Shown here: positions 15,916 through 53,789 of the stretch, piece after piece
How the letters are laid out: each line of letters starts with the position of its first letter
Position numbering within the stretch: the stretch's first letter is position 1
IMG/VR virus record: IMGVR_UViG_3300021376_000006
Source: a virus
Taxonomy: Duplodnaviria; Caudoviricetes
Length of the DNA stretch: 64,000 nt
Direction: 5' to 3' (one strand)
Notes under the pieces: generated by a model
Databases searched by the model: none
Told to the model about the DNA's origin: nothing
Seen by the model: only the letters and a program-made list of their open reading frames with translations
Program-made: the position numbers and the translations under genes

Positions 15916-16095
15916 GAACAAATTGGCCAAATTTAAATTAGATTTTAACCCATTATGTATTTTGTCTCTAGCCAGATCTCCTTGTGGATTAAATTTGTAA
16001 GATATAGGTACTGACCAATTTGTATCTACGTTTTCGGGTTGATCGGTTCCAGACCAATGTTCTAAATTATTTTTTTGATACCAGCTGTATGGCAT
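15898..16095 (-). pseudogene. Possible internally deleted SGNH-like gene remnant (65 aa)
   Basis: ISYKFNPQG directly abuts DLARDKIHNG; from recall these resemble the N- and C-terminal motifs of longer phage SGNH-like proteins. Confidence 0.35.
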
Positions 16096-16115
16096 TATTT
16101 TTGATTGCCAAAAAT

Positions 16116-16802
16116 TTAAATTCGTAATAGTTTTTTTAGATAAGGTGTTAAAAATTCAGCCCATTTCCTATGAGCAGCAGGACCAAAATGATATGACGAA
16201 TTTGATGTAAAACCACTGTCGGTGAGCCATTTCCAATAAGTCAGATTTGGATCATATGGATCAATAAAACAATGATGCCAATCTTTTTTTAATTGGTCAT
16301 TAAAATGATTAAAGGTATTGAAAAATAAATGAGGAATTTTCAAATCTAATAGCTGGGTATGAAAGTTGTAAATTTCATTGTGTGCTTTAGAAGTAACCAC
16401 GGACCAGTCTAAATTAATTATATAATTTTTATAACGTTCTTTTATTGGATCAGGCCAATCATTGCCTATACCACCACCATTAATTTGCCAATACACATCA
16501 TCATGCAACCACTCTTCTCTCTCCCATGTACTCCATCCAATAATTATTGCATCTGGTTTGTGATTTTCGAGATATTGTTTTGTTGTTCTTATAATTCTAG
16601 TATTAGAACTCGCCGATTCTGCGTCGCAATGTAAAATTGCAAATATATCATTAGCAATAATGCATCCATAACTTACACGTTCATTATCTGGATGTGGAAT
16701 ACGACCTAGTGCATAGTAAAATGGATCGTCTTCGGCAAAGCAATAATTGTTTACGGCTTCTGCACCGGCACTGTGACTGTCGCCATTTACATAAAGAATC
16801 AT
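16116..16802 (-). CDS. SGNH-like hypothetical protein
   Basis: YVNGDSHS, ASSN, IGWS and HFGPAAH motifs. Confidence 0.7.
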   Translation of the reverse strand: MILYVNGDSHSAGAEAVNNYCFAEDDPFYYALGRIPHPDNERVSYGCIIANDIFAILHCDAESASSNTRIIRTTKQYLENHKPDAIIIGWSTWEREEWLHDDVYWQINGGGIGNDWPDPIKERYKNYIINLDWSVVTSKAHNEIYNFHTQLLDLKIPHLFFNTFNHFNDQLKKDWHHCFIDPYDPNLTYWKWLTDSGFTSNSSYHFGPAAHRKWAEFLTPYLKKLLRI

Positions 16803-17197
16803 GAAATTTCTGTTCTTCCATTTCCTAAATCATTGCGGTCTACTCTTCTTGGTCTAGCATCAACTGGTTGATTTGCTTCCCACTGTTCAAAATTTTCGTT
16901 TAGAATATTGCGACACACACTCTGAAACCATCTATCCACAATCTCAGCATCGGTATCATCCTTTTTCTGCATGTACCCAGCTTTTACTAATCTAGCAACA
17001 AATACTTCGTTCCAGTCAAGTTCAAACGAACCGTTCCCGACATCATCTGCATCAAGTTCTATGCTTAATACACTGATGTACGGCTCACCTGCCTCGGTGG
17101 CCTGTTCTTTGGCCGACTTTATACGTTTGCCTACAGGTTTTTTTGGTTCATCGTTTATTGCTTGACTTGATGCTTTCTTTTTCATCCAATTAAACAT
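16799..17197 (-). CDS. Hypothetical protein
   Basis: 132 aa ORF. Confidence 0.8.
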   Translation of the reverse strand: MFNWMKKKASSQAINDEPKKPVGKRIKSAKEQATEAGEPYISVLSIELDADDVGNGSFELDWNEVFVARLVKAGYMQKKDDTDAEIVDRWFQSVCRNILNENFEQWEANQPVDARPRRVDRNDLGNGRTEIS

Positions 17198-17399: not shown

Positions 17400-17592
17400 A
17401 TCTTAATAACCCTGATTCGTAATAAAGTGCAGTTAAATCTAAATATTCTAACCTATAGGTTACAAAGGAAGGACGCCAAAATCTTGCTGTTTTATCTAGC
17501 CTTACAGTTATTACCCTTTTGTTTATTCGAATAGACCAAACACAAGAAAATCTTGACTTACAATAATAAAAGTTTATATCATTTTTAGTCAT
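17380..17592 (-). CDS. Hypothetical protein
   Basis: Start reassigned to MTKND at 17592, overlapping the queE stop. Confidence 0.45.
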   Translation of the reverse strand: MTKNDINFYYCKSRFSCVWSIRINKRVITVRLDKTARFWRPSFVTYRLEYLDLTALYYESGLLRYERNEN

Positions 17593-18440
17593 CAAGTTCC
17601 CCATTCGTTTTTAAATAACGGTACTTGAAGTCTATCGCTGTATCGTAAACCATGTTTCATTGCTAACAGTGCAACGTTGCGGTTATTTAAAGTATATACA
17701 CTTTCAATACCTCCTACTGGCATAAGATAAATTGATCCTTTAAATCCTGCATTACGATACTGCTCTGTGGCTTTTAAAGCATCTGTGACATCTTCTTCGG
17801 TTGCCACAACAAACTTGAGATAGGTGTAACCAACAGTGGCATAATCGCACACAATGTTGGGTTTGATTGCATCTTCCCATGACTCTCCACTGACAGGTAG
17901 TTTTGCGCTTACACTGAATGTAACTTCTCTATCTCGAGACGCAGCAGTCCATTCGCCTAGATAATGTTTGAACTCTTTGGTTAGCTCTTGAGTACCGTTA
18001 GTTTCAAAAGTAATTTCTTTTAACTTTTGCATACGAGGATGATTCAGCAGATCTTCGTAACTACGCTGCCAACCTAGTAGAGGCTCGCCACCTGTAATAA
18101 CAAGATGTTCGTCCTTCCACTTGCTATGTGGAAGAATTTCCATAATTTGTTCCACAATTGCATCACTGGTTAGCATAGGACTAAGATCTTTGAATCTTGG
18201 ATCCCAGCTTGCATAACTGTCACAGCCTGTACTTACCAAAGGTAAATCATCGTATTTGTTGTAATAATGCACTCTTGCTGCTATATCTTCTACTTCTCTA
18301 CTTAGTTTTCCTCTAGGCATACCGAATCCTGCACATTTAAAGTTGCAACCAAATGTGCGAAGAAAGACACTAGGCACACCCATGTATCTGCCTTCGCCTT
18401 GGATTGAATAAAATAGTTCAGCTACTTTGATTTTACTCAT
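17592..18440 (-). CDS. queE: 7-carboxy-7-deazaguanine synthase (radical SAM)
   Basis: ELFYSIQGEG, VFLRTFGCNFKC...CDS (CxxxC with displaced third Cys), ITGGEPLL, ETNGT, LKFVV, RLQV. Confidence 0.92.
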   Translation of the reverse strand: MSKIKVAELFYSIQGEGRYMGVPSVFLRTFGCNFKCAGFGMPRGKLSREVEDIAARVHYYNKYDDLPLVSTGCDSYASWDPRFKDLSPMLTSDAIVEQIMEILPHSKWKDEHLVITGGEPLLGWQRSYEDLLNHPRMQKLKEITFETNGTQELTKEFKHYLGEWTAASRDREVTFSVSAKLPVSGESWEDAIKPNIVCDYATVGYTYLKFVVATEEDVTDALKATEQYRNAGFKGSIYLMPVGGIESVYTLNNRNVALLAMKHGLRYSDRLQVPLFKNEWGT

Positions 18441-18442
18441 GA

Positions 18443-18967
18443 TTATCCTTGGTAGGTTGCACTGTTAGCACCGTGCTCAAATACTTCTACACTTTTTATA
18501 CGCACAGTTGGATTGATTGGATAACGCAAAGCGTCACCGGCTAACAGTTCACTCATTTTGTCATAGCACATCTTGGCAAACATTTCGCACCCTACACCCG
18601 GAACAATGCGTAGATCACACAATGCACCTCGTTCGTATGGTTTAACTTGTTCTAAACTTCCGGTACCAGACATAGGCATGTTGCCCTGATGACTCATTCG
18701 TACAAAAAAATCTAGGTGAGGATCATCTTCGGCCACAATTAGAGTATGATCAAACATGTAGTCGGCCCATGACTTGAATTCTTTGAGACCTCCAAAGTCC
18801 ATGCACCAGTTTTTATCGTCTAGTGTATCACATTCAAATACCAGCCGAATGCCAATTGAATAACCGTGTAGCGTTGAACAATGGCTGTGTGTGGCACGCC
18901 ATTGTCTAAAGCAACAGCTGAGTCCTCGGTCGTTGCCATAAGTTTTTGTTGAGTAAAATTGTGCCAA
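18443..18967 (-). CDS. queD: 6-carboxy-5,6,7,8-tetrahydropterin synthase
   Basis: HSHCSTLHGY, DFGGLK, FDHT, CEMFA, VEVFEH; TTG start after AGGAG. Confidence 0.9.
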   Translation of the reverse strand: MAQFYSTKTYGNDRGLSCCFRQWRATHSHCSTLHGYSIGIRLVFECDTLDDKNWCMDFGGLKEFKSWADYMFDHTLIVAEDDPHLDFFVRMSHQGNMPMSGTGSLEQVKPYERGALCDLRIVPGVGCEMFAKMCYDKMSELLAGDALRYPINPTVRIKSVEVFEHGANSATYQG

Positions 18968-19273: not shown

Positions 19274-19558
19274 TTACAGTTTGAATATTGTTGGCAGTAA
19301 CATACTGGCAGTACTAGCATCATCCCCGTGAAAGTGAAGTCTAGTACCGCCTGTGCCATTTTGGTGATGATGACAACGTTTTGCCTTGCCGTAACTAACA
19401 TATTTCACAATTTGTTCTCGACCACGACTGTCCCAAAATTTAGATTCAATTACAGTGCCGTCAATCATCTTGTACCACTCTATCATATCATCAGTGAGTT
19501 CGTCTACATCAATCCAGACCGCATACGTTACTGTGCAACCTGGTGGTAAAGCTATCAT
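19274..19558 (-). CDS. Hypothetical protein
   Basis: Start MIALPPG overlapping the PRTase stop; 3' end possibly frameshifted. Confidence 0.65.
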   Translation of the reverse strand: MIALPPGCTVTYAVWIDVDELTDDMIEWYKMIDGTVIESKFWDSRGREQIVKYVSYGKAKRCHHHQNGTGGTRLHFHGDDASTASMLLPTIFKL

Positions 19559-20103
19559 TGAGCCCACCACGTTTCCCAAGGAAAAACAACCCAACAAGGA
19601 TCATCGAGTTTGTTTATGTTGCGACCGCTATAGCTAATACCTTCGTAGCTGCTGGCTTCATTGTTTACAACAACTGCGAATCTTACATTACGGTTCCAGA
19701 TTGCCGACCATGCAGGATGATTGGGCAAGCAACTGCTCTGCCAATCTTGTCTAATCCATTCTAGTGTAGCACCTGAGTCATTGATGTCATCCACTATCAA
19801 TATTTTTTTTCGATAAGCAGGATCAGTGTCTGCATCACCTGAACCACGTTCGTCTTTGGGCACATAACCAAATGCCTGTTCGGCCATCCATAAATTACTT
19901 TCAGATTCCCCACCGTCACGCAAGCTCACTTTAAGTGTTTCACAAGGAACACCAAAGTAATGACTGATCATTACAGCAGGTTGCAATCCGCCCCGAGTTA
20001 TACCAACTACATAATCTGGACGCCAATTACTATTTGCAATATCTCTGCACAGTTTGTTGACCAAACCTTTGAATTCAGAATCTGAAATAATTAGTTGTTT
20101 CAT
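19555..20103 (-). CDS. Type I purine phosphoribosyltransferase (Gpt/Hpt-like)
   Basis: VVGITRGG, PRPP loop LIVDDINDSGATL, WVVFPWE. Confidence 0.9.
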   Translation of the reverse strand: MKQLIISDSEFKGLVNKLCRDIANSNWRPDYVVGITRGGLQPAVMISHYFGVPCETLKVSLRDGGESESNLWMAEQAFGYVPKDERGSGDADTDPAYRKKILIVDDINDSGATLEWIRQDWQSSCLPNHPAWSAIWNRNVRFAVVVNNEASSYEGISYSGRNINKLDDPCWVVFPWETWWAQ

Positions 20104-20291
20104 CAGTCTCTTTCCATAAGTGAAGCTTCTTTGATAAGTGCTACCAATTCATCCAAGGTGTTACACAAAATTTTTGCATTGGCCCAATCGCCATCTTCGG
20201 TGCGACCACCAGCTTCAAACATGAAACCGTTGTCATACATGCTGTCAGTAAAGCTGTCGTTGATTTTGTTTAATTTGTCTTCGATTTTCAT
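20103..20291 (-). CDS. Hypothetical protein
   Basis: 62 aa ORF with coupled overlaps. Confidence 0.65.
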   Translation of the reverse strand: MKIEDKLNKINDSFTDSMYDNGFMFEAGGRTEDGDWANAKILCNTLDELVALIKEASLMERD

Positions 20292-20515
20292 TTTAATCCT
20301 TTCTTGAGTTTATCTTCTTTCATGCCTTGTGCTATCATTTTTTTAAAAATTAATACCACTCTATTTTTCTCCTTTTCAGAGAGAAACTTTACCAACATCA
20401 ACTTGTCTTCGTAACTTTTTGCGTTGTCAAGAAATTCTTCAGGTACTGTAATTTTTGGTTTTTTTGGTTTGAATTTCTTGAGTTCAGCTTTGACATCTTT
20501 TTCTTCATCAGACAT
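20288..20515 (-). CDS. Hypothetical protein
   Basis: 75 aa ORF with AGGAG RBS. Confidence 0.65.
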   Translation of the reverse strand: MSDEEKDVKAELKKFKPKKPKITVPEEFLDNAKSYEDKLMLVKFLSEKEKNRVVLIFKKMIAQGMKEDKLKKGLK

Positions 20516-20542
20516 GACGGGCTCCTTTTAGCGTATTTAACG

Positions 20543-21238
20543 CTATCTGGGAGCAAATTCTTGTTGTAGTTTAACGTTGTCAAAAAATTCTTTTTTGGTT
20601 GCAGCATCGTCTTTGAATGCGCCTCTCAACACTGTTGTTTGGGTAAGACTGCTATGTGCCATAATGCCTCTATTCTCGCAGCAACCGTGCGTGGCTTGTA
20701 TATAAACTGCCACATCCTTACTTCCAGTTGCAAACTCAATTTCTCTGGCGATATCCATACATAGTTCTTCTTGAAGTGTGCCGCGCCGCGCACACCATTG
20801 TGCAATTCGCGTGTACTTCGAGAGACCAATGAGTTTGGGTCCAGCAATAATACCAATATAAGCAACACCCGACACAGGTTGATGATGATGGCTACAAACA
20901 CTTTTAAGTTCGCTTCGAACTACAAGCATTCCGTCGTATGCCCCATCAGTGTCATTTGGAAATGCAGTTGCGTTGGGTGTAGGATCATATCTACCTGCCA
21001 TCAATTCATAGTAATACATTTTGGCAAGACGTCTTGCTGTGCCTTTACTGTTGGGATCAGTTGCTCGGTCAATCAACAATGTATCTAGCACTTGTTCAAA
21101 AGCCTCTGTGGCTTCGTCAATCAACTGATCTCGATCTTCGTCATTCACATAACTGCTTATGTTGTCACCGGCCCAATATCTCTTGCCGTCTGCCTGCATC
21201 TGTTCTCTAATACGATCACTTACTCTTGTATATTTCAT
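20543..21238 (-). CDS. folE: GTP cyclohydrolase I
   Basis: TARRLAKMY, CSHHHQP, GLSKYTR, LQEEL, HGCCENRG. Confidence 0.95.
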   Translation of the reverse strand: MKYTRVSDRIREQMQADGKRYWAGDNISSYVNDEDRDQLIDEATEAFEQVLDTLLIDRATDPNSKGTARRLAKMYYYELMAGRYDPTPNATAFPNDTDGAYDGMLVVRSELKSVCSHHHQPVSGVAYIGIIAGPKLIGLSKYTRIAQWCARRGTLQEELCMDIAREIEFATGSKDVAVYIQATHGCCENRGIMAHSSLTQTTVLRGAFKDDAATKKEFFDNVKLQQEFAPR

Positions 21239-21850
21239 TTAATCTCCAATAATTGCGATATCTCTTAGATCTGGATATTCGTGATATTTAGGTTGTTCAT
21301 TCAGTGTTAGAAGTTTTTCTAAACCGATCCTTGCATCTTCGATAGTGGGGCGATAATGATAACCAACCTTGAAAACACGCTGTTCCTGCCACGGCAAGAA
21401 ATTGAGATTTCTTCCGTCATAGCGTTGTTGTAATAGTATATCATATGCCTCGTAATCGTCTAACAGTATAGCACCACCGTGGCCTATCTGTAAAGGTTTA
21501 TTATGACCAAAACTCAAACACTGCATCATACCAGGCCGATACATGCCGTCTTCCAATCTTCTAGCACTATCCCAAATGTCTGTTCCGTAAAATCTATACT
21601 CACCTGTCCATTTTTCTGGAACTAATTTGTATTCTATTCCTAACTTGTGCATGATCATTGGGATTGATAGATAGGTGTATGCGGTAAACTTGACTCGTTG
21701 AACCTTATTGTAGCGCAAACATAACTCAATCGCATGTGTACAGCAATCAGTCATTATGGCATAAGGTGCACCAGTTTTCTTTGCTAATAATTTTTCAAAT
21801 TGCGCTATTTCTTCAAAGGCCACGTGTGTACCATTTATAAGCTGAATCAA
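21239..21850 (-). CDS. Short DegT-family PLP protein
   Basis: DCCTHAIEL, DSARR, SFGHNKPLQIGHGGAIL; only 203 aa. Confidence 0.75.
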   Translation of the reverse strand: MIQLINGTHVAFEEIAQFEKLLAKKTGAPYAIMTDCCTHAIELCLRYNKVQRVKFTAYTYLSIPMIMHKLGIEYKLVPEKWTGEYRFYGTDIWDSARRLEDGMYRPGMMQCLSFGHNKPLQIGHGGAILLDDYEAYDILLQQRYDGRNLNFLPWQEQRVFKVGYHYRPTIEDARIGLEKLLTLNEQPKYHEYPDLRDIAIIGD

Positions 21851-22778
21851 CGATTTGGTTGATAGTTGAATAGTTAGGACGCCAGTTCAGTACTGATTGT
21901 GCTAGGCCAGCATCTGCAACTAGTTGATCCGGATCTCCGGGCCTACGTTCGCCTACGTGTAATTTTAACGGTCCATATTTTAATGTAATATAATCTACAA
22001 TTTCTTGATTGCTTATTCCGCTATTGGTTCCCAAATTAAACACTGCAAATTGCTGATCAGTGTTCCAATGTATAGCTCTATGATGTGCATCAGCTAAATC
22101 CCATACATGAATGTAATCTCTAATACAGGTTCGATCTGGTGTTGCAAAGTCTACACCGTTTAGAGTGAAAAATTCATCACGAATTTTAGATTCTAATAAT
22201 CTAGCAATGATGTGTCCTGCGCCCGGTGCTTGACCTAGGTCGTGATTGTAAGGTTCGGCACCGGCGGCGTTAAAGTATCTAAAACAAACACCAGGTAATC
22301 CGTATGCTTGGTTATAATTTTGAAGCACTACTTCAATAATATCTTTAGTGTGGCCGTATGGACTAATAGGTTTTATCCTGTCAGTTTCAACCAGTGGAAC
22401 ATGATCAGGGTTGCCGTACACACTAGCACTAGAACTAAAAAGAATAATCGGTTTCTTTTTATAATCCTTAACATGATTTAAAAATGTAATTGTCTTTGCT
22501 ACATTGTTATCATAATATTTTGCCGGATCTTCAACACTTTCTCTAACAGAGATATCCCCGGCACAATGTACAATGACATCGGGTTGTAATTCGTCTAACC
22601 ATAATAAACTTTGTTTAGATACATAGTCAGTATGTAAAAATCCATCAACATTTTTTAATGTGTGATCTCTACGCTCACTATCAATAACATACACACTTGA
22701 ATTTTTGTTGTGTTGTTTTAAATAGCGAGAAATGTGACTACCAATGTAGCCACATCCGCCTGTAATGACAATTTTCAT
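21813..22778 (-). CDS. galE: UDP-glucose 4-epimerase-like SDR
   Basis: ITGGCGYIGSH, FSSSASVYG, SPYGHTK, RYFNAAGA, RDYIHVWDLA. Confidence 0.88.
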   Translation of the reverse strand: MKIVITGGCGYIGSHISRYLKQHNKNSSVYVIDSERRDHTLKNVDGFLHTDYVSKQSLLWLDELQPDVIVHCAGDISVRESVEDPAKYYDNNVAKTITFLNHVKDYKKKPIILFSSSASVYGNPDHVPLVETDRIKPISPYGHTKDIIEVVLQNYNQAYGLPGVCFRYFNAAGAEPYNHDLGQAPGAGHIIARLLESKIRDEFFTLNGVDFATPDRTCIRDYIHVWDLADAHHRAIHWNTDQQFAVFNLGTNSGISNQEIVDYITLKYGPLKLHVGERRPGDPDQLVADAGLAQSVLNWRPNYSTINQIVDSAYKWYTRGL

Positions 22779-23971
22779 TAGTACTTGCTTTCGTGTGTGT
22801 GTTTACGATAGTCTGTACTCATTCGCAACCAGGATTCTCCGTTGCCTTGGAGAATATCGCAGATCCTATCAATAGTCGAGTCGTTCCACGCACTAAACTT
22901 GCCCATGTTGTTGTGCGGATGTTGTAAGAGGGGTACAAGTTTTTGTATTGCATCTCTAATCGACCACGGGACATAAAGTCTCTCGCTATCATTTGCAAAA
23001 GCTTCGGGGAAACTTCTGTAGGCGGGGTATAAAATATTAGCCCCAAGAGCGTCAGCTTCACTTGCTGTGTTCGAAACCCAATCCTGTAGAGCACAATTAA
23101 ACAATACTCGCGTATCCGTGAGTAATTCATAGTAATCATTCTTTTCAAGATCTTCATACACAGTCAGTTTGCCTTCGGCCTGCAGTCTACGTGTACGTTC
23201 CATGTAACTGCTATTGTTACTACGCAACTTGCTGCCGCTGAATACACAGAATTCTACCCGGGGCCAATCGTTATATGGCAATGTCTGCAGTCTATGATAT
23301 TCTTCGATTAGATCCATGTAGAAGTCTGGCTGCTTCTCTTGATCCCACCTAGCAGCAAAACCTACACGGTAAGCTCTATCTTCGAATCTTTTTAGATCTC
23401 CGGGTACACGACTGCGTACTTCGTCTTTACCAAACGCCAGTCCACTGATATTATACAGCCTACCCTGCCAGCCTGCAACCTTCATGTGCATGACCATTTC
23501 TTCATTAGTGGCAAGAATTATATCGGCAAACGAGTCGACCATCTTTTCATAGTGTCCCATCCATTCTTGCATACCCCATACATGAACAAAATCATCGGGG
23601 TCAATAGTTTGTGCAAGACAGCGAACGGCAATGCGAGGACGGCTACCAGCGTCCACTTGATCCAAAATGTAAGGTAGGCTTTCGATGCCGGGTTGAAACA
23701 TGTCCTCAAAGTATACAACATCTTCATTAGTAACTGCTCCTGCTTTCATTAGACGAATAAGATTCATAAGTTGGCTCATGCCAAAATATGTACGACCATG
23801 TGCATCAAGGACTTGACCAGTAACAATAGCTTGGTCATTGCTTAGTGTGTCGCCGGGCACAATTTCATAGTCGATGCCGCGGCGTTCAAACACTGCACGA
23901 TTCCATTCTTGTAATTGTAATGTATAACGTGCCTTATAAGGCTCTAGGCCCATGTACCATAATTTACGCAT
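22778..23971 (-). CDS. GT-B fold glycosyltransferase-like protein
   Basis: FAARWDQEKQP and FNCALQDWVSNTASEADALG...YP...SFPE resemble the GT4 nucleotide-sugar-binding domain. Confidence 0.65.
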   Translation of the reverse strand: MRKLWYMGLEPYKARYTLQLQEWNRAVFERRGIDYEIVPGDTLSNDQAIVTGQVLDAHGRTYFGMSQLMNLIRLMKAGAVTNEDVVYFEDMFQPGIESLPYILDQVDAGSRPRIAVRCLAQTIDPDDFVHVWGMQEWMGHYEKMVDSFADIILATNEEMVMHMKVAGWQGRLYNISGLAFGKDEVRSRVPGDLKRFEDRAYRVGFAARWDQEKQPDFYMDLIEEYHRLQTLPYNDWPRVEFCVFSGSKLRSNNSSYMERTRRLQAEGKLTVYEDLEKNDYYELLTDTRVLFNCALQDWVSNTASEADALGANILYPAYRSFPEAFANDSERLYVPWSIRDAIQKLVPLLQHPHNNMGKFSAWNDSTIDRICDILQGNGESWLRMSTDYRKHTHESKY

Positions 23972-24393
23972 TATTTTTCTCCTGTATCTGTAGCGACCTT
24001 GATATTTAGACCGCGTAGTGCGCTGTCAGGAATTTGTACTCTCGTTGACTTTTGAGCTATCACACTGTTCCAATATTCTTGTGCTCGATAGCCACCTTGT
24101 GTGAAATTCTTTTCAGGGTAAGAAAGTTGATTTTTCAATGATTGTACTTGATCATCAAGTCTTTTGATCCATCTCCAATGATCTTTTATGTCTTCTTGCA
24201 TTCTACGCAATGGCCCTTGAGCTCGAACATCTGCTTCATTATCTCCGCTATCAGTCAATATCACCATCATCATGAGTTGACGTAGTGCATTCTTTACTCT
24301 AGGATCATCGCTGGTCATTGCTCGATCAAACATTTCCGTCAAACGTTCTAGATCGAAGTTGGCTGCGTCTTTTTCTCTCATTGCTCCACTCAT
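23971..24393 (-). CDS. Hypothetical protein
   Basis: 140 aa ORF. Confidence 0.7.
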   Translation of the reverse strand: MSGAMREKDAANFDLERLTEMFDRAMTSDDPRVKNALRQLMMMVILTDSGDNEADVRAQGPLRRMQEDIKDHWRWIKRLDDQVQSLKNQLSYPEKNFTQGGYRAQEYWNSVIAQKSTRVQIPDSALRGLNIKVATDTGEK

Positions 24394-24611
24394 TGTACAC
24401 GATCCTTTTTAGCGTACCAATTCATCTTGGGCCATTTTCCACGTTGGGCACGATCAAACTCACCCCAGGGAGTTTTTTCATTGTATAGGTGTCTTTCATC
24501 ATACGGATATCCGTATGTGACACAAAATTCACGATATTTTTCAAGGTCGTCAAAAATTTGACTGACTTCAGGTTTCATAGTCAGGTATTTCTTGAGCCAT
24601 TTAGCGGCCAT
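24390..24611 (-). CDS. Hypothetical protein
   Basis: 73 aa ORF with AAGGAG RBS. Confidence 0.75.
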   Translation of the reverse strand: MAAKWLKKYLTMKPEVSQIFDDLEKYREFCVTYGYPYDERHLYNEKTPWGEFDRAQRGKWPKMNWYAKKDRVQ

Positions 24612-24621
24612 GTTTATCTCC

Positions 24622-25071
24622 TTAGATTTTTATTGAAAGAGAAGGTTGATGAGTTGCATAAGTTATGGAGCAGCCGTTTTCGTTGTCTTCGCTTACACTG
24701 ATTGTAACATTGCGTTCGGGATACCTGTTAGCGATTTGAACATATAAATCATCTGCAATCATTTCACAACTTTTGTGATCTAATTGCAATACAGCTTGGT
24801 CGCCCGAATACAATTGTTCGATCCAGCGTTTGAACTGGATGAATTCGATGTCTCTGTCATTGTGAAATACATCAATACTAATCCTAAAATGAAATATATG
24901 GCGATGAGGATGGCCAAGGAACGAAACGTCATATTTGTCTCCGGTTGCGAGTAGTGGATCGGTCAGTGCTGCTGGATATTGATGGATACCTTCTCGAGAA
25001 AAAGTAACCCAAATCTGTCTTTGAGCGTGGTGTAAAATTCTATCAACTGTTTCTCTTTGTGATTGGATCAT
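24622..25071 (-). CDS. QueD/PTPS-like T-fold protein (second, divergent copy)
   Basis: HPHRHIFHF His cluster, DIEF, SCEMIA, VSEDNENG parallel the QueD motif layout. Confidence 0.6.
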   Translation of the reverse strand: MIQSQRETVDRILHHAQRQIWVTFSREGIHQYPAALTDPLLATGDKYDVSFLGHPHRHIFHFRISIDVFHNDRDIEFIQFKRWIEQLYSGDQAVLQLDHKSCEMIADDLYVQIANRYPERNVTISVSEDNENGCSITYATHQPSLSIKI

Positions 25072-25664
25072 AATAAATTCAAGTTGTCAAAAGTTATTGT
25101 TTTAGTATAAATTCCAAATTGCAAATAGTCAATCAATTTGATTATCAAATCTGCGATTTGTGCGGTACTTTGTAATAGTTTATCTTTAGGTAATATACCG
25201 TTCAATGAATGTATAAAATTGGTGTCTAATAGAGCCGGATTAATTTCAATTATTTTTAATTGAGAATCAATTTGACGATGTATATCTATCATGTTTTTTT
25301 GTTTTCTTTTTTCTTCTATGTACTTTTTTTCTTTGGGATTGAAGTTTACGTAAAATGATTCAGGTTTGTCTACCAAGAAACTTCCTATGTGAATTATCAA
25401 TTTGTTTGGATCATATCGCCATACTTTTAAAATATATTTAAGAAGCATGGTTTGCCCAAACGCATCGTATGCGTTGTTAATAAAAACATCTGCCGATCGA
25501 CTTAATTGTAATATTTTTGCTATGGTACTAAGTTTACTAATGTCGTACCCATCAATGATATCATATCCTACAACTTGATTTTGACCAAAATTCTTATAAT
25601 ATTGTAGTCTGAGACAAAGAGCTTGCCCTAAGCCAGATTTATGGCCAGTTATAACCAATTTCAT
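25068..25664 (-). CDS. Short-chain dehydrogenase/reductase
   Basis: ITGHKSGLG, DVFINNA, YIEEK (YxxxK). Confidence 0.75.
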   Translation of the reverse strand: MKLVITGHKSGLGQALCLRLQYYKNFGQNQVVGYDIIDGYDISKLSTIAKILQLSRSADVFINNAYDAFGQTMLLKYILKVWRYDPNKLIIHIGSFLVDKPESFYVNFNPKEKKYIEEKRKQKNMIDIHRQIDSQLKIIEINPALLDTNFIHSLNGILPKDKLLQSTAQIADLIIKLIDYLQFGIYTKTITFDNLNLL

Positions 25665-26194
25665 TTAATTACTTCGTCTTTGGTATACTGTGACCAATCA
25701 GTAAATACACCGTCTCTACGCATCAGGCTGTGTACACTATGGCACCACACCCCAGGATTAGAATGTGCAAAATTAGTATCATCGATTTTTATTGTTGCAT
25801 TATATCCAAGCTGTTGTATATAGGGCAATTTAACCGATATCATTGGAATAAACTTTTGATATTCAACAAGAGTAGATTCTAGCAATCCTTCTACTTCTCT
25901 CACATCTATATCCAAAGTACACCAATAACCACGTCCTATAAAAGGCATGATCATATTTTCCCATCGTGTCCAATCTTGACTTGTAGCGCGACCTGTTGGA
26001 AAACTTTGGTTAGCACCAAAATATATGTGTTCAATTTTTTTGTTTACTTGGGTGAAAGGATCATTTAGTATCTGTTCAATGTCTTCAGTAGATTTCACTC
26101 CTGCTACAAAAAGAGTTTTCAAGCCATATGCTGGACTATGTTCTACTTCAGTGCCTAAAAACATAGTAACATCATTGTGTCCAGGTCTGTCCAT
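25661..26194 (-). CDS. Hypothetical protein within the deazaguanine cluster
   Basis: 177 aa ORF (GTEVEHSPAYG...HIYFGANQSF...NPGVWCH). Confidence 0.8.
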   Translation of the reverse strand: MDRPGHNDVTMFLGTEVEHSPAYGLKTLFVAGVKSTEDIEQILNDPFTQVNKKIEHIYFGANQSFPTGRATSQDWTRWENMIMPFIGRGYWCTLDIDVREVEGLLESTLVEYQKFIPMISVKLPYIQQLGYNATIKIDDTNFAHSNPGVWCHSVHSLMRRDGVFTDWSQYTKDEVIK

Positions 26195-26407: not shown

Positions 26408-27952
26408 TTATTCCTCCAAATGAGTTTGCATAATTGTTTCTGCTTCGTCCTCAGACATTTCGTCTTCAACTTCTTCTACTGTTTCAAAAAGTGCATTAAA
26501 CATGGTATGACTGTTCTTTGTTTTTTTGCCTTTGAATCCTCTTGTGCCAACGATGTCCATCCAATAACTATCGTAGCGTTCAACAATTGCTTCGGCACTT
26601 GCACGATCAGGTGCAGAGAAAACAGCTTCAACAATGTCTCTGAATCTAGCATGGTCACCATTGACATTCCACAGCATGCTAGGTCGTTCTCCTGCATCAT
26701 ACGCTCTATTCGCTCGCTGAACTGATTCAATATGCATCCAAACATTGTGCCCCATCATTAATGCGTAACTAAAACTATCCCAACTGGTTCGACCTTCCTT
26801 GCCATTTTTATTCAGGTCACCGGGTTGATATATACAAACATCTTTAATTAGCAAATGTTTACTTATTGGACTGTCCTCAAATTGTTCAAAGATACCATCT
26901 TGTAATACCGCATCTCGAAACAGTCTAGTGTCTGTGGCGTATTTCTTGTCATCGGCACTGGGCTTCATTTTGTACGACCATTTACTATCGTGTTCAAGAC
27001 TAATGGCATGATACATCTGTCCATTGGCAGTAGCAAGAAACGGACTGGCGCAATCAAAACTGATTGTAAATGCTGGATTGACATACTTACGAACGGCTCG
27101 TTGAATGTCAGTTAGTAACAACGCCCATTCTAGTTTACTTGTTCCTAGAAAGTGCATCCAATCATGTACACCTTCTTGCAGTAGATTATCATATCTCAAT
27201 GCAACTAATCTTTTAAGAACAAGATGAATATCACACATGTTCTGACCGCCCATAGCCCAGCCATCAAAATGTGTATCTGGATATATGGTAGGATCGCAGA
27301 ACTGTTTCATTTCTTGATACCATTCTTCTGCCGAAGTATGATTGTCACCTTGAAGAACGTTTAGGAACTTAGCACCACCGTTGTTCTTTCCTTGACGGTG
27401 TTGCATAAAGTAATTGTTGTTAAACTTGGTAGCATCAACTGCTTCTTGGAGAGTAGTAATGCCGCAGGCCTTGCTTGCTTTCTTGTCATGGATAACCCAA
27501 GTTGGAATATCAAGAATCATACCATAGTCAGCAATACCGTCTAGCCATTTTAACACAGCCGAACGTTTCTTTTCAGCTTTTGAACACCCGCTATTGGCTT
27601 TCCAATCACCTTCCCACAAGCCCTTGGCAATCTGAAATCCGCCGGAGTCACCTAACATAAAGGTTCCAGGTTCTCTCTTGCGAACCATGTCTTCACTGGC
27701 ATCCTCTTTAGTAAGATCTAGGTTTGCGTGTCCTCCGGAGTAGAGATTCCATCTGTAGGGGAACAGGGCTTGTTGGCTGTTCAGCCAATTGAATTGCTCC
27801 ATGTCCTGTAATGCCTGTGGCATACGAGCAGGATCAACATAGTCATTGTTAACACGTTGTTTTCCTATAAAAGTTGCATAGAATCCAGATATAGCAGGCA
27901 AGAACACTGCATAATCTGATTGCTTTGCTGTTAAATTATCTTGGTTCGTCAT
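26408..27952 (-). CDS. Guanine transglycosylase (TGT/DpdA-like)
   Basis: DSGGFQ, LDIP, NVLQG, GWAMGG, HFLGTS, SFDCASP; located with folE/queD/queE. Confidence 0.8.
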   Translation of the reverse strand: MTNQDNLTAKQSDYAVFLPAISGFYATFIGKQRVNNDYVDPARMPQALQDMEQFNWLNSQQALFPYRWNLYSGGHANLDLTKEDASEDMVRKREPGTFMLGDSGGFQIAKGLWEGDWKANSGCSKAEKKRSAVLKWLDGIADYGMILDIPTWVIHDKKASKACGITTLQEAVDATKFNNNYFMQHRQGKNNGGAKFLNVLQGDNHTSAEEWYQEMKQFCDPTIYPDTHFDGWAMGGQNMCDIHLVLKRLVALRYDNLLQEGVHDWMHFLGTSKLEWALLLTDIQRAVRKYVNPAFTISFDCASPFLATANGQMYHAISLEHDSKWSYKMKPSADDKKYATDTRLFRDAVLQDGIFEQFEDSPISKHLLIKDVCIYQPGDLNKNGKEGRTSWDSFSYALMMGHNVWMHIESVQRANRAYDAGERPSMLWNVNGDHARFRDIVEAVFSAPDRASAEAIVERYDSYWMDIVGTRGFKGKKTKNSHTMFNALFETVEEVEDEMSEDEAETIMQTHLEE

Positions 27953-28559
27953 AAAAATCAAGGTTACTTATAAATTTGTAGTCGTTGTGATATGTAATAA
28001 TAATTTTAGATTTTAATTTAGGATCGTTGTCGATACGTGATTTGATAAATTTTATAACCTGGGCGTTATCGTAATTTGATTCTGATCTGTTATCTTCAAT
28101 GTTATCAAGTGTATTTAGATCATAGCCCAAGTAATGATTTATTTGTTGCTTTAAATTTTTGTTAAATCTAAAATATACTGGATCGTAATTCAAAATTTGT
28201 TGTATATATTTTAACTGAAAGTCAGTATGATCATCAAACACGATTTGATCAAAGATTATTCTTTCGGCTAAATGGTTGTAATCAGAAACAAAGTGATCAC
28301 TGCCATAGCCTGATCCTAGCAGGCGTAAAGAAGCGTAAGTACCAAATCCACTCAGCCATCTTTCTACAGGATCTCTTATTACCACCAAGCAATTTTTAAT
28401 AGCAATTGGTTGATCAATGATATTCCAGTGTGACCAAGAATTGTATTTCAACAAATTAGTTAAATAGGTGCTTGCATTTTTTGGAATATTGAGATAAAAT
28501 ATTTCCCGGTCAGGGGACAACATACCTCCGCCGGGAACATATCCTGTGTCTTTGATCAC
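27936..28559 (-). CDS. Sulfotransferase family protein
   Basis: IPKNAST (5'-PSB) and IRDPVERWLS (3'-PB) motifs. Confidence 0.75.
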   Translation of the reverse strand: MIKDTGYVPGGGMLSPDREIFYLNIPKNASTYLTNLLKYNSWSHWNIIDQPIAIKNCLVVIRDPVERWLSGFGTYASLRLLGSGYGSDHFVSDYNHLAERIIFDQIVFDDHTDFQLKYIQQILNYDPVYFRFNKNLKQQINHYLGYDLNTLDNIEDNRSESNYDNAQVIKFIKSRIDNDPKLKSKIIITYHNDYKFISNLDFYDEPR

Positions 28560-34068: not shown

Positions 34069-34248
34069 TTATTTTTTTGGTTCGCATGTGCGAGTGCGTT
34101 GGATTGTACCATCCGCTTTGCGTTCTTCACGCCATTCTGTGCATACTTGAGTTTCTGTTCGTTCTGGTAACACTTTGTCCACAGTCCAGTTGGCTGCCAT
34201 CCAGCCCATTGCACTAAAAAATCCCCATACTAGTATTTCTGCCATCAT
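34069..34248 (-). CDS. 59 aa membrane-anchored protein
   Basis: Read manually: MMAEILVWGFFSAMGW...VCTEWREE...RTRTCEPKK; overlaps the upstream stop. Confidence 0.7.
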   Translation of the reverse strand: MMAEILVWGFFSAMGWMAANWTVDKVLPERTETQVCTEWREERKADGTIQRTRTCEPKK

Positions 34249-35399
34249 TTAGTTTGTAATAATAATTTAAGTCTTTGTTCTAGCTCTTCCCAATATACCA
34301 AATCTGCTGTTATTGGAGTGACCAATATAATTGAACTTGGAAGAAAATACGGAGTACACAATCCAGCATATTCGTAATCTTGTTTTGCCAATGATTTGTT
34401 TACTAAAAGCTCTTTAGCCAACCCGGTTCCTCGAAAACCAGTTACACCGTAATCTTTTAATTTATCAAATAAAATTTCATGTTGAATATTAATATTTTCG
34501 ACCAATTCAGAATTAAATTGTTCTAACACACAATTGGCTAAAGCTATACCAAGCATTTGCGGTTGCCAGGTATGACCGTACATGATTGAATTTTTTACAT
34601 TTGAATAAACTCTGTCATTCATCAAAGCACAACTAAGTGGAACCATGCCGCCTGTGATACTTTTTCCCATTATGTTGATATCAGGTTTTACGTTGTATTT
34701 TTGATAACTAAACGCAGGTCCTACTTTGCCAAATCCGCCCCACACATCATCTACTATCAATAATATATCTTTTTGGTCACACAACGTCCTAATTTTTTGC
34801 CACCAATTATTAGTCCATGGTCGTAAACCGTTTATCCACGGAATAGATTCCATGACAATAGTTCCTATAGAAATATCTGTATTGGTAATCTTTTCAATTA
34901 CACCAAGTAAATTAATTTCATCTTGAACTTGATCATTTGCAGGCGCTGGTAAAATTATATTGTAGTCTGACGACTTTTCTCCGCGTAGCATTCTTGCACG
35001 GTAAGTTGTACCATGATAACCAGGATAGAAGCTTATTGTCTTATTTTTTCTTGGATCAACATTTTTCCAATATTGGTCTGCAATTTCTAGTCCAGCTTCA
35101 ACACCATCACTGCCACTGACAGCATACAAAACTGCATTCATGCCACTTGTTTGCAAAAGTCGTTTGTTAACTTTTTCTACTAGATGATTTTTTTCACTTG
35201 ATCTACCGCGTAAAAACTGAACATCGCGCAATTGAGATTCAACAGCAGCAATTAAATTGGAATCGCTGTAGCCCCAAATGTATGCACTGTGTCCGCACAT
35301 TAGGTCTAAGTATTTTTTTGATTCTGTTTCGATCCAATAATCATAGGTTTTAGTAACAAAGCGGGTCGCTTCTTCGTTACAGTGTTCGACTATTTCCAT
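34245..35399 (-). CDS. Class III PLP aminotransferase (BioA/ArgD-like)
   Basis: YLDLMCG, SGSDGVE, YHGTT, LLIVDDVWGGFGKVG, PDINIMGKSITGG. Confidence 0.85.
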   Translation of the reverse strand: MEIVEHCNEEATRFVTKTYDYWIETESKKYLDLMCGHSAYIWGYSDSNLIAAVESQLRDVQFLRGRSSEKNHLVEKVNKRLLQTSGMNAVLYAVSGSDGVEAGLEIADQYWKNVDPRKNKTISFYPGYHGTTYRARMLRGEKSSDYNIILPAPANDQVQDEINLLGVIEKITNTDISIGTIVMESIPWINGLRPWTNNWWQKIRTLCDQKDILLIVDDVWGGFGKVGPAFSYQKYNVKPDINIMGKSITGGMVPLSCALMNDRVYSNVKNSIMYGHTWQPQMLGIALANCVLEQFNSELVENINIQHEILFDKLKDYGVTGFRGTGLAKELLVNKSLAKQDYEYAGLCTPYFLPSSIILVTPITADLVYWEELEQRLKLLLQTK

Positions 35400-48754: not shown

Positions 48755-48762
48755 AAAAATAT

Positions 48763-53440: not shown

Positions 53441-53789
53441 ATTATTTGGTCCAATATACACTATTTAGCGTATTACAATCCATTTTTCTTAATTTTATAA
53501 TATTGGTATTGGTACATAATAATCTAATAATTTATGAGTACAATGTAACTGATTTTATATGCTGTCGTGACCATATTCAATGATAAGTTTTTTGTATTTC
53601 ATTTAATGAACAACAATGTACGGAATAGATAGAGAACGGTCTAATACTTAGCACAAAAAATAGCAAATAAACACGCAGTTTTAGGTATAAATTTTGCTTC
53701 TTAAATATCTACGTGGACTTGATAAAGAAGATGCCAAGCCCACTAAGGAGCAGGCTATGGCAGATCCACCCATTCTAAAGGAGGTAGTC

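What the first reader, a model, noticed from the sequence alone, without database searches (positions are those of the whole stretch)
21239..23971. folE-DegT-GalE-glycosyltransferase run: candidate glycosylation of a modified base
Seen: four tightly packed or overlapping genes; the DegT has only 203 aa but keeps the PLP-Lys motif. No hydroxymethylcytosine synthase is visible in the window (ThyA keeps the dUMP Asn). Established: T-even glucosyltransferases are GT-B enzymes acting on pre-modified bases. Inference: the acceptor may be the deazaguanine substituent, giving a sugar- or aminosugar-conjugated base.
Basis: inference. Interest (0 to 1): 0.66.

Follow-up and report, generated by a model that had tools for sequence, protein, structure and literature searches.

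The report
Sugar transferase inside phage deazaguanine genes
A giant lake-water phage carries the known gene set for swapping guanine in its DNA for 7-deazaguanine. A real sugar-transferring enzyme is locked to that set here and in many unrelated phages, so the DNA may carry a sugar-bearing purine that I found described in no paper.

Summary
FolE, a 203-aa DegT, GalE and a 397-aa protein form an overlapping minus-strand run, but folE (20543-21238) lies just outside the given coordinates. The 397-aa protein matches no Pfam, NCBIfam or PHROG model. It folds confidently as a GT4-type GT-B glycosyltransferase and keeps the sugar-donor motif.

The run sits inside a complete QueC-less 7-deazaguanine module: FolE, QueD, QueE, a DpdL homologue with the LxxxHRHxF motif, and a 517-aa TGT-fold DpdA.

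The glycosyltransferase family is tied to this module.
- All 42 well-flanked diverse viral loci with the transferase also have DpdL and QueE.
- About a fifth of DpdL modules lack it, including Cellulophaga phage phiST, whose DNA holds plain dDG.
- So it behaves as an optional tailoring step downstream of DpdL.

GalE joins only in the aquatic T4-like clade, and the short DegT only in the closest relatives.

The link to deazaguanine is strong, but the acceptor is unproven. There is no C7 substituent if DpdL removes the carboxyl, as proposed. DegT and GalE are accessories.

This scan reached the same reading earlier on many other phage genomes. Cultured phages (PA5oct, ACP17, BUCT-ZZ01, X1, BCSR5, Phosso) can test it by mass spectrometry.

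The parts
17592..18440 (-). QueE-like radical SAM enzyme (7-carboxy-7-deazaguanine synthase)
   Evidence: PF04055. Its best NCBIfam hits are all QueE models, E 6e-16, though below their cut-offs. It is syntenic with QueE in relatives.
18443..18967 (-). QueD (6-carboxytetrahydropterin synthase), with a CxxxHGY motif
   Evidence: PF01242, E 2e-15. TIGR03367 is the best hit. It is 35% identical to ACP17 QueD.
19555..20103 (-). Xanthine/guanine-type phosphoribosyltransferase, an accessory of the module in this clade
   Evidence: PF00156, E 8e-12. NF006613 (XPRT) is the best hit. A counterpart is annotated in BUCT-ZZ01. It was found directly in 14 diverse loci.
20543..21238 (-). FolE, GTP cyclohydrolase I
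   Evidence: PF01227, E 5e-38; phrog_2197.
21239..21850 (-). Short DegT-family PLP protein (194-203 aa). It lacks the C-terminal domain and about 30 internal residues, and keeps Asp94 and Lys118.
   Evidence: PF01041, 48 bits; profile positions 37-81 and 163-240 of 360 are matched. Alignment to solved DegT enzymes. A conserved short family. dN/dS 0.06.
21813..22778 (-). GalE, UDP-hexose 4-epimerase
   Evidence: TIGR01179, 280 bits, above its cut-off of 262. GxxGxxG and YxxxK motifs. It lies directly downstream of the GT in most relatives whose GT is 50% or more identical.
22778..23971 (-). GT4-type GT-B glycosyltransferase, the conserved module partner
   Evidence: AF2 model pLDDT 94.9. Foldseek and VIA place it with GT4 enzymes at Z 22-26.5. 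R208, K213 and D297-x7-E305 are conserved. PF00534 hits in 23 of 28 distant members.
24622..25071 (-). DpdL homologue: a QueD-like T-fold protein, proposed CDG decarboxylase
   Evidence: Motif LGHPHRHIF at residue 52 matches the published LxxxHRHxF signature. It is 35.5% identical to the phiST stretch lying in CGPG_00067, which is DpdL, and 53% identical to ACP17 ASD50405. phrog_17812.
25661..26194 (-). Unknown accessory protein (o177 family), often next to the GT or DpdA
   Evidence: 26% identical to ACP17 ASD50402. The family is in 17 of 83 diverse loci and beside the GT in Xanthomonas X1 and Burkholderia BCSR5.
26408..27961 (-). Long DpdA-type DNA-guanine transglycosylase (TGT fold plus a helical C-terminal part)
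   Evidence: Motifs DSGGFQ, LDIP, VLQG, GWAMGG, HFLG and FDCA. hhalign to ACP17 DpdA, E 1e-4. HMM searches seeded with it and with DpdA converge on the same proteins. AF2 model pLDDT 86.6, and all top 50 PDB hits are TGT.

Best explanation
The window encodes a complete QueC-less 7-deazaguanine DNA-modification module. FolE, QueD and QueE make 7-carboxy-7-deazaguanine. The DpdL homologue is proposed to remove the carboxyl group. The long DpdA swaps the resulting base into phage DNA in place of guanine.

The 397-aa GT4-type glycosyltransferase is an optional tailoring enzyme of this module. It most likely moves a hexose from a UDP-sugar onto the 7-deazaguanine, either on the free base before insertion or on the base already in DNA. 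The result would be a sugar-bearing purine that gives further protection from host nucleases and glycosylases.

In this aquatic T4-like clade, GalE supplies the donor (UDP-galactose or a 4-epimer).

The short DegT is a lineage-specific extra of unknown role, possibly sugar amination.

The phosphoribosyltransferase may recycle the guanine that DpdA releases.

Shown: the gene identities, the fold, the conserved donor motif and the synteny statistics. Inferred: the acceptor, the sugar, the order of steps and the biological effect.
For: 1. The full module is present in the window: FolE, QueD and QueE, DpdL with its signature motif, and a TGT-fold DpdA. QueC matched none of the larger window ORFs scanned against Pfam (small ORFs were not scanned) and is absent from a complete 352-kb relative.

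2. The GT has a confident GT-B/GT4 fold and keeps the Arg/Lys and D-x7-E donor-binding residues across 50 homologues that share 28-57% identity with it. Its median dN/dS is about 0.07. It therefore looks like an active enzyme.

3. Synteny from the GT side:
- Homologues at 25-62% identity sit inside deazaguanine clusters of BUCT-ZZ01 and ACP17.
- The same holds in three metagenomic lineages at 30-40% identity.
- HMM-detected homologues lie beside DpdL in PA5oct, Phosso, Xanthomonas X1 and Burkholderia BCSR5.
- In 42 of 42 well-flanked diverse loci the GT has DpdL and QueE nearby. In 37 of 42 all five module genes are present.
- The usual order is QueD-QueE-FolE-DpdL-GT-DpdA.

4. Synteny from the DpdL side is asymmetric. 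Of 50 well-flanked DpdL-anchored loci, 39 have the GT and 11 do not. phiST, whose DNA is plain dDG by mass spectrometry, has no GT anywhere in its genome. A gene that needs the module, while the module does not need it, is the pattern of a tailoring step.

5. GalE lies directly downstream of the GT in most of the loci whose GT is 50-55% identical to this one, within 8 kb in the 63-64% group, and nearby in 59 of 83 close loci.

6. There is chemical precedent. HuiG, a glycosyltransferase of the GT4-type Pfam family, puts GlcNAc on the 2-amino group of a 7-deazapurine base.

7. PA5oct, which carries the GT, has a restriction-resistant modified G of undetermined structure.
Against: - No experiment or computation here shows the acceptor.
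- If DpdL removes the carboxyl group, as proposed, 7-deazaguanine has no hydroxyl or other usual sugar acceptor on its major-groove side. N2 or O6 glycosylation would disturb pairing or the minor groove. C-glycosylation by a retaining GT4-type enzyme has no precedent that I know of.
- The family is acidic (median pI 5.8), unlike what I recall of T4 beta-glucosyltransferase. DpdA is equally acidic, so this weighs little.
- The nearest structures are mostly small-molecule or polymer GT4 enzymes. Phage DNA alpha-glucosyltransferase models rank no better than generic GT1-domain proteins.
- DpdL's decarboxylase activity is itself only proposed, and reconstitution in E. coli failed.
- The IMG/VR loci are not phylogenetically independent, so the counts overstate the number of independent lineages.
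Confidence: 0.45

Rival explanations
1. The glycosyltransferase acts on a soluble pathway molecule and the product never enters DNA. Candidates are a pterin glycoside made from the FolE/QueD branch, as with cyanobacterial tetrahydrobiopterin glucoside, or a huimycin-like deazapurine glycoside. Such a product could serve as a metabolite, a storage form or an inhibitor.
For: - Tetrahydrobiopterin glucosyltransferases are among the structural neighbours (Z 22-24; rank 31).
- Most top hits are small-molecule GT4 enzymes: BshA, MshA, SenB and LmbT.
- HuiG glycosylates a free 7-deazapurine.
- An SDR-like ORF (25068-25664) lies in the window's cluster.
Against: - The GT is flanked by DpdA, a DNA transglycosylase, in 40 of 42 well-flanked loci, and always has QueE and DpdL. 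A pterin product needs none of these.
- The SDR-like ORF occurs in only 2 of 83 close loci.
- The pterin-GT matches are tied with dozens of other GT4 enzymes, and no sequence-level relation appeared.
Confidence: 0.15
2. The glycosyltransferase modifies nucleic acid, but not at the deazaguanine. It could act on another DNA base or on host tRNA queuosine, and it merely shares an operon with the deazaguanine genes.
For: - Known phage DNA glycosyltransferases act on hydroxymethyl or hydroxy pyrimidines (titles and abstracts).
- Queuosine in animal tRNA is mannosylated and galactosylated.
Against: - No second ThyA-family gene was found in a complete relative. Tet/JBP gave no match, but its control genomes did not ring either.
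- The compact six-gene operons on smaller viral contigs (about 14-100 kb) show no pyrimidine-modifying gene among the recurrent neighbour families.
- The strict dependence on DpdL (42 of 42 loci) would be unexplained.
- No QueC, QueF or later queuosine genes are present.
Confidence: 0.1
3. The GT-B protein is an auxiliary factor for base exchange rather than a DNA- or base-glycosylating enzyme. It could glycosylate or escort DpdA or DpdL, or work as a non-catalytic partner needed by the long and f322-type DpdA enzymes.
For: - Its gene is always directly next to DpdL and DpdA.
- Bacterial DpdA needs a partner, DpdB.
- ACP17 dpdA plus dpdL failed to give dDG in E. coli, and the authors suggested that other enzymes may be required.
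Against: - Conserved donor-binding residues point to real sugar-nucleotide chemistry.
- GalE travels with it in one large clade.
- Modules with the same f322-type DpdA exist without the GT, for example L188 and L190.
- phiST makes dDG without the GT.
Confidence: 0.1
4. GalE and the short DegT are not part of DNA modification at all. They belong to the phage's general sugar-nucleotide supply, which feeds the large glycan-tailoring island that starts just upstream of the window, and they landed here by gene shuffling.
For: - The window start carries a second epimerase/dehydratase (915-1889) and a full-length DegT (1-924).
- Earlier scan notes describe a sugar-tailoring island of about 21 kb adjoining it.
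- The short DegT is in only 24 of 83 close loci and in none of the diverse ones.
- The position of GalE relative to the GT varies, and it is sometimes after QueE.
- GalE is absent from most lineages that have the GT (4 of 42 well-flanked loci have it).
Against: - GalE lies immediately downstream of the GT in many loci whose GT is 50-93% identical to this one, and is overlap-coupled to it here.
- The short DegT is coupled to folE: its stop codon abuts the folE start.
Confidence: 0.3

Closest known systems
DpdL/DpdA 7-deazaguanine (dDG) system of Cellulophaga phage phiST (Cui, Hutinet et al., NAR 2023, PMC10516641)
   Same: FolE, QueD, QueE, a QueD-like DpdL with the LxxxHRHxF motif, a TGT-family DpdA, and no QueC. 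The genes sit next to the replication genes.
   Different: phiST has a short DpdA3 and no glycosyltransferase anywhere in its genome. The window has a 517-aa DpdA plus the GT-B enzyme, GalE, the short DegT and a phosphoribosyltransferase. The paper's main text, searched for 'glycosyl', mentions no glycosyltransferase partner.
T4 alpha- and beta-glucosyltransferases acting on 5-hydroxymethylcytosine in DNA
   Same: A GT-B fold enzyme encoded by a phage beside base-modification genes, using a UDP-sugar. It would decorate an already non-canonical base after or around replication.
   Different: There is no hmC pathway here. The sequence and structure sit with GT4 enzymes (Z 22-26.5). Viral DNA alpha-GT models rank only 21st and 27th, among generic GT1-domain proteins. 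The acceptor would be a purine analogue.
HuiG of the huimycin cluster (Kutzneria albida; PMC7439116), and the GT4-type transferases of huimycin- and dapiramicin-like clusters
   Same: A glycosyltransferase encoded next to FolE, QueD and QueE homologues that glycosylates a 7-deazapurine base at its 2-amino group.
   Different: That is an actinomycete secondary-metabolite pathway with QueC (preQ0) and O-methylation, and its product is a free compound, not DNA.
Mannosyl- and galactosyl-queuosine of animal tRNA (QTMAN, QTGAL)
   Same: A sugar is added to a 7-deazaguanine derivative that already sits in a nucleic acid.
   Different: The acceptor there is a hydroxyl of the cyclopentenediol side chain of queuosine in tRNA. 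No such side chain can be made by the genes here. My recollection that QTMAN is a GT4-type enzyme could not be checked.
UDP-glucose:tetrahydrobiopterin glucosyltransferase (BGluT; PDB 5ZE7 and 9V0L)
   Same: A GT4-type fold (Z 22-24) whose acceptor derives from the FolE/PTPS branch of GTP metabolism.
   Different: The match is no better than to dozens of other GT4 enzymes. No sepiapterin reductase is conserved. QueE, DpdL and DpdA always accompany the phage enzyme.

Membership tests
GT-B fold, GT4-type (Pfam Glycos_transf_1 clan) glycosyltransferase | Two Rossmann-like domains with an interdomain cleft | tested here: met
   AF2 model pLDDT 94.9, pTM 0.92. Foldseek E 1e-12 to glycogen synthase, BshA and MshA. 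VIA Z 22-26.5 over 300-348 residues.
GT-B fold, GT4-type (Pfam Glycos_transf_1 clan) glycosyltransferase | C-terminal donor-binding residues: an Arg/Lys pair and the E-x7-E-type motif | tested here: met
   R208 and K213 are invariant. D297 and E305, spaced x7, are 90% or more conserved in 50 homologues. The motif assignment rests on general knowledge of GT4 enzymes.
GT-B fold, GT4-type (Pfam Glycos_transf_1 clan) glycosyltransferase | Significant match to the curated family model (PF00534) | tested here: inconclusive
   The window protein itself has no hit at E 0.01 or better. 23 of 28 distant family members do hit, with a best E of 4.5e-10. The family profile hits WlaC at E 5e-4.
T4-type DNA glucosyltransferases (AGT/BGT) | A hydroxymethylcytosine (or hmU) supply in the same phage | tested here: not met
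   There is a single ThyA with the dUMP Asn, and one ThyA-family gene in a complete 352-kb relative. No Tet/JBP match was found, but the control for that family was uninformative.
T4-type DNA glucosyltransferases (AGT/BGT) | Closest structural relatives are AGT or BGT | tested here: inconclusive
   They are not among the 50 best PDB rows. Viral DNA alpha-GT models rank 21 and 27 with TM about 0.5. Absence from a top list does not exclude relatedness.
DpdL-type dDG DNA-modification system (Cui et al. 2023) | FolE, QueD and QueE present, QueC absent | tested here: met
   No QueC among the window ORFs scanned, and none in a complete relative.
DpdL-type dDG DNA-modification system (Cui et al. 2023) | DpdL: a QueD paralogue with LxxxHRHxF in place of CxxxHGH | tested here: met
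   LGHPHRHIF at residue 52. 35.5% identity to phiST CGPG_00067. The motif is as published.
DpdL-type dDG DNA-modification system (Cui et al. 2023) | A TGT-family DpdA transglycosylase | tested here: met
   The model of ORF 26408-27961 matches only TGT structures in the top 50. hhalign to ACP17 DpdA, E 1e-4. DSGGFQ and the other barrel motifs are present.
DpdL-type dDG DNA-modification system (Cui et al. 2023) | dDG actually present in virion DNA | not testable with these tools
   This needs LC-MS/MS of DNA, and the phage is uncultured.
DegT/DnrJ/EryC1/StrS sugar aminotransferases | PLP-binding Lys and Asp of the large domain | tested here: met
   K118 lies in SFGHNK and aligns with the Schiff-base Lys. 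D94 in WDSA is placed at the ED(A)A position by eye. PF01041 scores 48 bits, above its cut-off.
DegT/DnrJ/EryC1/StrS sugar aminotransferases | Full two-domain architecture of about 360-400 aa | tested here: not met
   The protein has 203 aa, and only profile positions 37-81 and 163-240 of 360 are matched. All 120 listed homologues are 192-220 aa, nearly all 193-204. It is best called a DegT-derived short PLP protein, not an established aminotransferase.
GalE (UDP-glucose 4-epimerase, TIGR01179) | Score above the curated equivalog cut-off, plus SDR motifs | tested here: met
   280.2 bits against 262.3. GGCGYIGSH and YGHTK motifs.

The most novel reading that the evidence does not exclude
Virion DNA of this phage, and of the many phages that carry the DpdL-GT-DpdA module (among them cultured PA5oct, ACP17, BUCT-ZZ01, Xanthomonas X1, Burkholderia BCSR5 and Sinorhizobium Phosso), contains a hexosylated 7-deazaguanine. 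Here it would probably be galactosylated. As far as I could find, this would be the first sugar-bearing purine analogue described in any DNA. It would be made by a GT4-type enzyme with a new kind of acceptor chemistry: N- or C-glycosylation of a pyrrolopyrimidine.
Probability: 0.35. Interest if true: 0.85.

Novelty: new variant of a known kind. Interest (0 to 1): 0.7.

Why it matters
All DNA glycosylations I found described sit on pyrimidines (hmC, hmU, 5-hydroxycytosine). All eight 7-deazaguanine DNA bases listed by Cui et al. 2023 are sugar-free. A glycosyltransferase that never occurs without the DpdL/DpdA module predicts a ninth, bulkier member of that series.

If true, this would bear on several things:
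- how these very abundant aquatic and soil phages escape restriction enzymes, END-type nucleases and deazaguanine-directed glycosylases;
- why their DNA can be hard to cut or sequence;
- what tools might be drawn from it, namely a transferase able to put sugars on purine analogues.

It may also explain why dpdA plus dpdL from ACP17 did not reconstitute dDG in E. coli. The question is directly testable, because several cultured phages carry the enzyme.

Tried and rejected
- Pfam, NCBIfam and PHROG scans of the 397-aa protein gave nothing.
- Megablast of 20000-26000 against cultured phages gave nothing.
- No whole genome is held for the window, so absence of genes was checked in relatives only.
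- The supplementary tables of Cui et al. 2023 are not held, so I could not confirm which ACP17 genes they named dpdA and dpdL. I inferred this from homology.
- An HMM of the 517-aa family against PDB sequences found nothing. The fold search was needed to identify it.
- Complex prediction of the GT with DpdA (residues 7-475) gave no verdict: score 0.00 and controls not run. This is neither for nor against binding.
- The isoelectric point does not separate DNA-binding from small-molecule use, because DpdA is equally acidic.
- I recalled motif similarity to animal QTMAN/GTDC1, but could not test it. No such sequence was available, no family member hit the N-terminal Pfam domain I recall for that enzyme, and the Atlas neighbours are all viral GT1-domain clusters. 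I dropped it as unverified.
- The first iterated HMMs drifted. The PRT model absorbed FolE, and the DpdL model picked up some o177-like proteins. The counts given for PRT are from direct searches. The counts given for DpdL are confirmed by a direct search (76 loci) and by the motif.
- Literature searches for a glycosylated deazaguanine in DNA found none.


Full report
**What is at the coordinates.** Nearly every ORF of the window is on the minus strand. Read in the direction of transcription, the finding covers three genes:
- a 397-aa ORF, 22778-23971;
- GalE, 21813-22778: TIGR01179 at 280 bits against a cut-off of 262, with GxxGxxG and YGHTK motifs;
- a 203-aa DegT-family ORF, 21239-21850: PF01041 at 48 bits.

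FolE follows directly at 20543-21238, just outside the stated interval (PF01227, E 5e-38). The junctions are TAATG (GT/GalE), an 11- or 38-nt overlap (GalE/DegT) and TAA-ATG (DegT/FolE). So 'tightly packed or overlapping' is correct.

**The short DegT.** It keeps the Schiff-base lysine (K118 in SFGHNK) and the preceding aspartate. It lacks the whole C-terminal domain and about 30 internal residues. It is not a wreck. More than 6000 metagenomic homologues were found, and all 120 listed are 192-220 aa, nearly all 193-204. Median dN/dS against orthologues is about 0.06.

**No hydroxymethyl-pyrimidine route.** ThyA keeps PFNIASY. A complete 352-kb relative has one ThyA-family gene and no QueC. It also has no Tet/JBP match, although that family rang in none of the control genomes.

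**The '397-aa glycosyltransferase'.** It has no hit in Pfam, NCBIfam or PHROGs. Several results identify it.
- A profile of 50 homologues gives weak hits to GT4 enzymes in the PDB: WlaC at E 5e-4, then GlgM, WbaZ and MshA.
- An AlphaFold2 model is confident (pLDDT 94.9, pTM 0.92). It matches retaining GT4-type GT-B enzymes over its whole length.
  - By Foldseek, E is about 1e-12 for glycogen synthase, BshA and MshA.
  - By VIA, Z is 22-26.5 for sucrose-phosphate synthase, MshA, BshA, TarM, PglA, SenB, LmbT and the tetrahydrobiopterin glucosyltransferases.
- 23 of 28 distant family members hit PF00534.
- R208 and K213 are invariant, and D297-x7-E305 is nearly so. These are the positions that bind the sugar nucleotide in GT4 enzymes, by general knowledge of the family.
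- Among viral models the best named match is the ACP17 homologue. T4-like DNA alpha-glucosyltransferase models rank 21st and 27th, no better than generic GT1-domain proteins.

So it is a real GT-B enzyme of GT4 type, not a close relative of T4 AGT or BGT.

**The surroundings.** The window holds a complete QueC-less deazaguanine module.
- QueE (17592-18440) and QueD (18443-18967) lie downstream.
- ORF 24622-25071 carries LGHPHRHIF. This matches the LxxxHRHxF signature that Cui et al. give for DpdL, the proposed 7-carboxy-7-deazaguanine decarboxylase.
  - It is 35.5% identical to phiST CGPG_00067, which is DpdL.
  - It is 53% identical to ACP17 ASD50405.
- ORF 26408-27961 (517 aa, no family hit) carries DSGGFQ, LDIP, VLQG, GWAMGG, HFLG and FDCA.
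  - It aligns to ACP17 DpdA by hhalign (E 1e-4).
  - Iterated searches seeded with it converge on the same proteins as DpdA seeds.
  - Its model (pLDDT 86.6) has only tRNA-guanine transglycosylases among its 50 best PDB matches.
  - It is therefore a long DpdA. A first-stage note had suggested this, and it is now tested.

**The link between the transferase and the module.**

Close relatives: the family is huge. At least 8000 near relatives were found on contigs of up to about 365 kb. In 83 close loci the order is PolB, o240, DpdA, (o177), DpdL, o73, GT, a variable stretch, then FolE, QueD, QueE.

Distant homologues show the same association.
- Homologues lie inside deazaguanine clusters of Synechococcus phage BUCT-ZZ01 (62% identity) and Acidovorax phage ACP17 (25%), next to DpdA and DpdL.
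- The same is seen in three metagenomic lineages at 30-40% identity.
- HMM-detected homologues lie beside DpdL in Pseudomonas PA5oct, Sinorhizobium Phosso, Xanthomonas X1 and Burkholderia BCSR5.

Counts around diverse transferase homologues: I took 83 loci around homologues sharing 28-64% identity with the window protein.
- DpdL, confirmed by direct search and by its motif, is in 76 of them, typically about 500 nt upstream.
- FolE is in 66, QueE in 65 and QueD in 61.
- A TGT-like gene, either the long type or a 322-aa 'DSGAHS' type, is in about 70, typically just downstream.
- Among the 42 loci with enough flank, all 42 have DpdL and QueE, and 37 have all five module genes.

The reverse does not hold.
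- Of 50 well-flanked loci anchored on DpdL, 39 have the transferase and 11 do not.
- phiST, Rhizobium RHph_I1_18 and Vibrio Bakedbeans have none anywhere in their genomes.

The transferase needs the module, but the module does not need the transferase. That is the signature of an optional tailoring step acting on the module's product. It also shows the enzyme is not required to make dDG.

**GalE and the short DegT.**
- GalE lies directly after the transferase in most loci whose transferase is 50-55% identical to this one, and nearby in 59 of 83 close loci. It is in only 4 of 42 well-flanked diverse loci.
- The short DegT is in 24 of 83 close loci and none of the diverse ones.
- Both are under purifying selection.

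I read GalE as a clade-specific donor supply, which points to UDP-galactose or another 4-epimer. I leave the short DegT as an accessory of unknown role. The window start carries another epimerase/dehydratase and a full-length DegT that belong to a separate sugar-tailoring island. A general sugar-supply role for both genes therefore remains a live rival.

**Mechanism and its weak point.** The best-supported model runs as follows. FolE, QueD and QueE make CDG. DpdL makes 7-deazaguanine. DpdA inserts it into DNA. The GT4-type enzyme adds a hexose to the deazaguanine, before or after insertion.

The weak point is chemistry: 7-deazaguanine offers no hydroxyl. HuiG provides a precedent for N2-glycosylation of a free 7-deazapurine by a glycosyltransferase of the GT4-type Pfam family. 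Animal tRNAs carry glycosylated queuosine. A sugar on N2 in duplex DNA, or a C-glycoside at C7/C8, would be new.

Other points bear on this:
- DpdL's activity is itself only proposed.
- PA5oct, which has the transferase, has a restriction-resistant modified G whose structure has not been determined.
- I found no paper that describes a glycosylated deazaguanine in DNA, or that mentions this transferase as part of Dpd systems.

I put 0.45 on 'the acceptor is a 7-deazaguanine species' and 0.35 on the sugar ending up in virion DNA.

**Relation to earlier scan results.** After forming this reading I looked up the scan's notes. The same 'glycosyltransferase inside a DpdL-type deazaguanine module' has been reported by follow-up agents on many other phage genomes, with the same closest known system. 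My results agree with them and add several points:
- the forward and reverse asymmetry (42 of 42 against 39 of 50);
- the fold confirmation of the long DpdA in this window;
- the clade limits of GalE and the short DegT;
- the demonstration that the short DegT is a conserved form;
- the HuiG precedent.

**Verdict.** This is a new variant of a known kind of system, and it is testable in cultured phages.

Noticed in passing
window 19555-20103 (-): A xanthine/guanine-type phosphoribosyltransferase sits between FolE and QueD, as in BUCT-ZZ01. It may recycle the guanine released by DpdA back to GMP/GTP for FolE, or it may make a 7-deazaguanine nucleotide, as the toyocamycin and tubercidin pathways do (from my own knowledge).
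   Followed up: partly
window 25661-26194 (-); L005:5326-5724 (ACP17 ASD50402); X1 WEM34305; BCSR5 QRE00064: An unknown family of about 130-180 aa (consensus GxExEG...TLFV...IYFGA) recurs next to the GT or DpdA. It is in 17 of 83 diverse loci and 31 of 80 DpdL-anchored loci. It has no family hit and may be another module component.
   Followed up: partly
L004:6010-7353 (BUCT-ZZ01 UTS52035, 447 aa); also L128, L135, L141: Some phages appear to carry a second copy. A 447-aa protein upstream of DpdA was joined to the GT-B family only by an iterated HMM (direct E to the window GT 0.048). If it is a real paralogue, this recalls the alpha/beta transferase pair of T4 or a two-sugar chain.
   Followed up: partly
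window 25068-25664 (-): An SDR-like ORF (N-terminal TGxxxGxG) is inserted between the o177-like gene and DpdL. It is present in only 2 of 83 close loci, so it is probably a passenger.
   Followed up: partly
window 27936-28559 (-): A weakly sulfotransferase-like ORF (PF03567, E 2e-4, below cut-off) lies directly upstream of DpdA and overlaps it. It is present in 23 of 83 close loci.
   Followed up: no
window 1-1889 (-): A second NDP-sugar epimerase/dehydratase (915-1889) and a full-length DegT aminotransferase (1-924, running off the window). They belong to a separate sugar-tailoring island noted by earlier scan reports.
   Followed up: no
window 34245-35985 (-): A class-III aminotransferase (PF00202, E 2e-45) followed by a weak alpha/beta-hydrolase ORF. 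Its purpose in a phage is unclear.
   Followed up: no
L174:8251-9402 (Vibrio phage Bakedbeans gp176): Here DpdL is the C-terminal part (residues about 266-392) of a 383-aa protein. The N-terminal 265 residues are unidentified, and this phage has no GT-B homologue.
   Followed up: no
L001:6219-7766 and 16044-16835: A 91%-identical relative has a 515-aa radical SAM gene inserted between DpdA and the o177-like gene, and a UDP-glucose dehydrogenase next to the PRT. The accessory set of the module varies between close relatives.
   Followed up: no
window 46460-49629 (-), 53694-54509 (+): Phage-encoded ClpB-like AAA+ chaperone (764 aa), DnaJ (288 aa) and PhoH.
   Followed up: no
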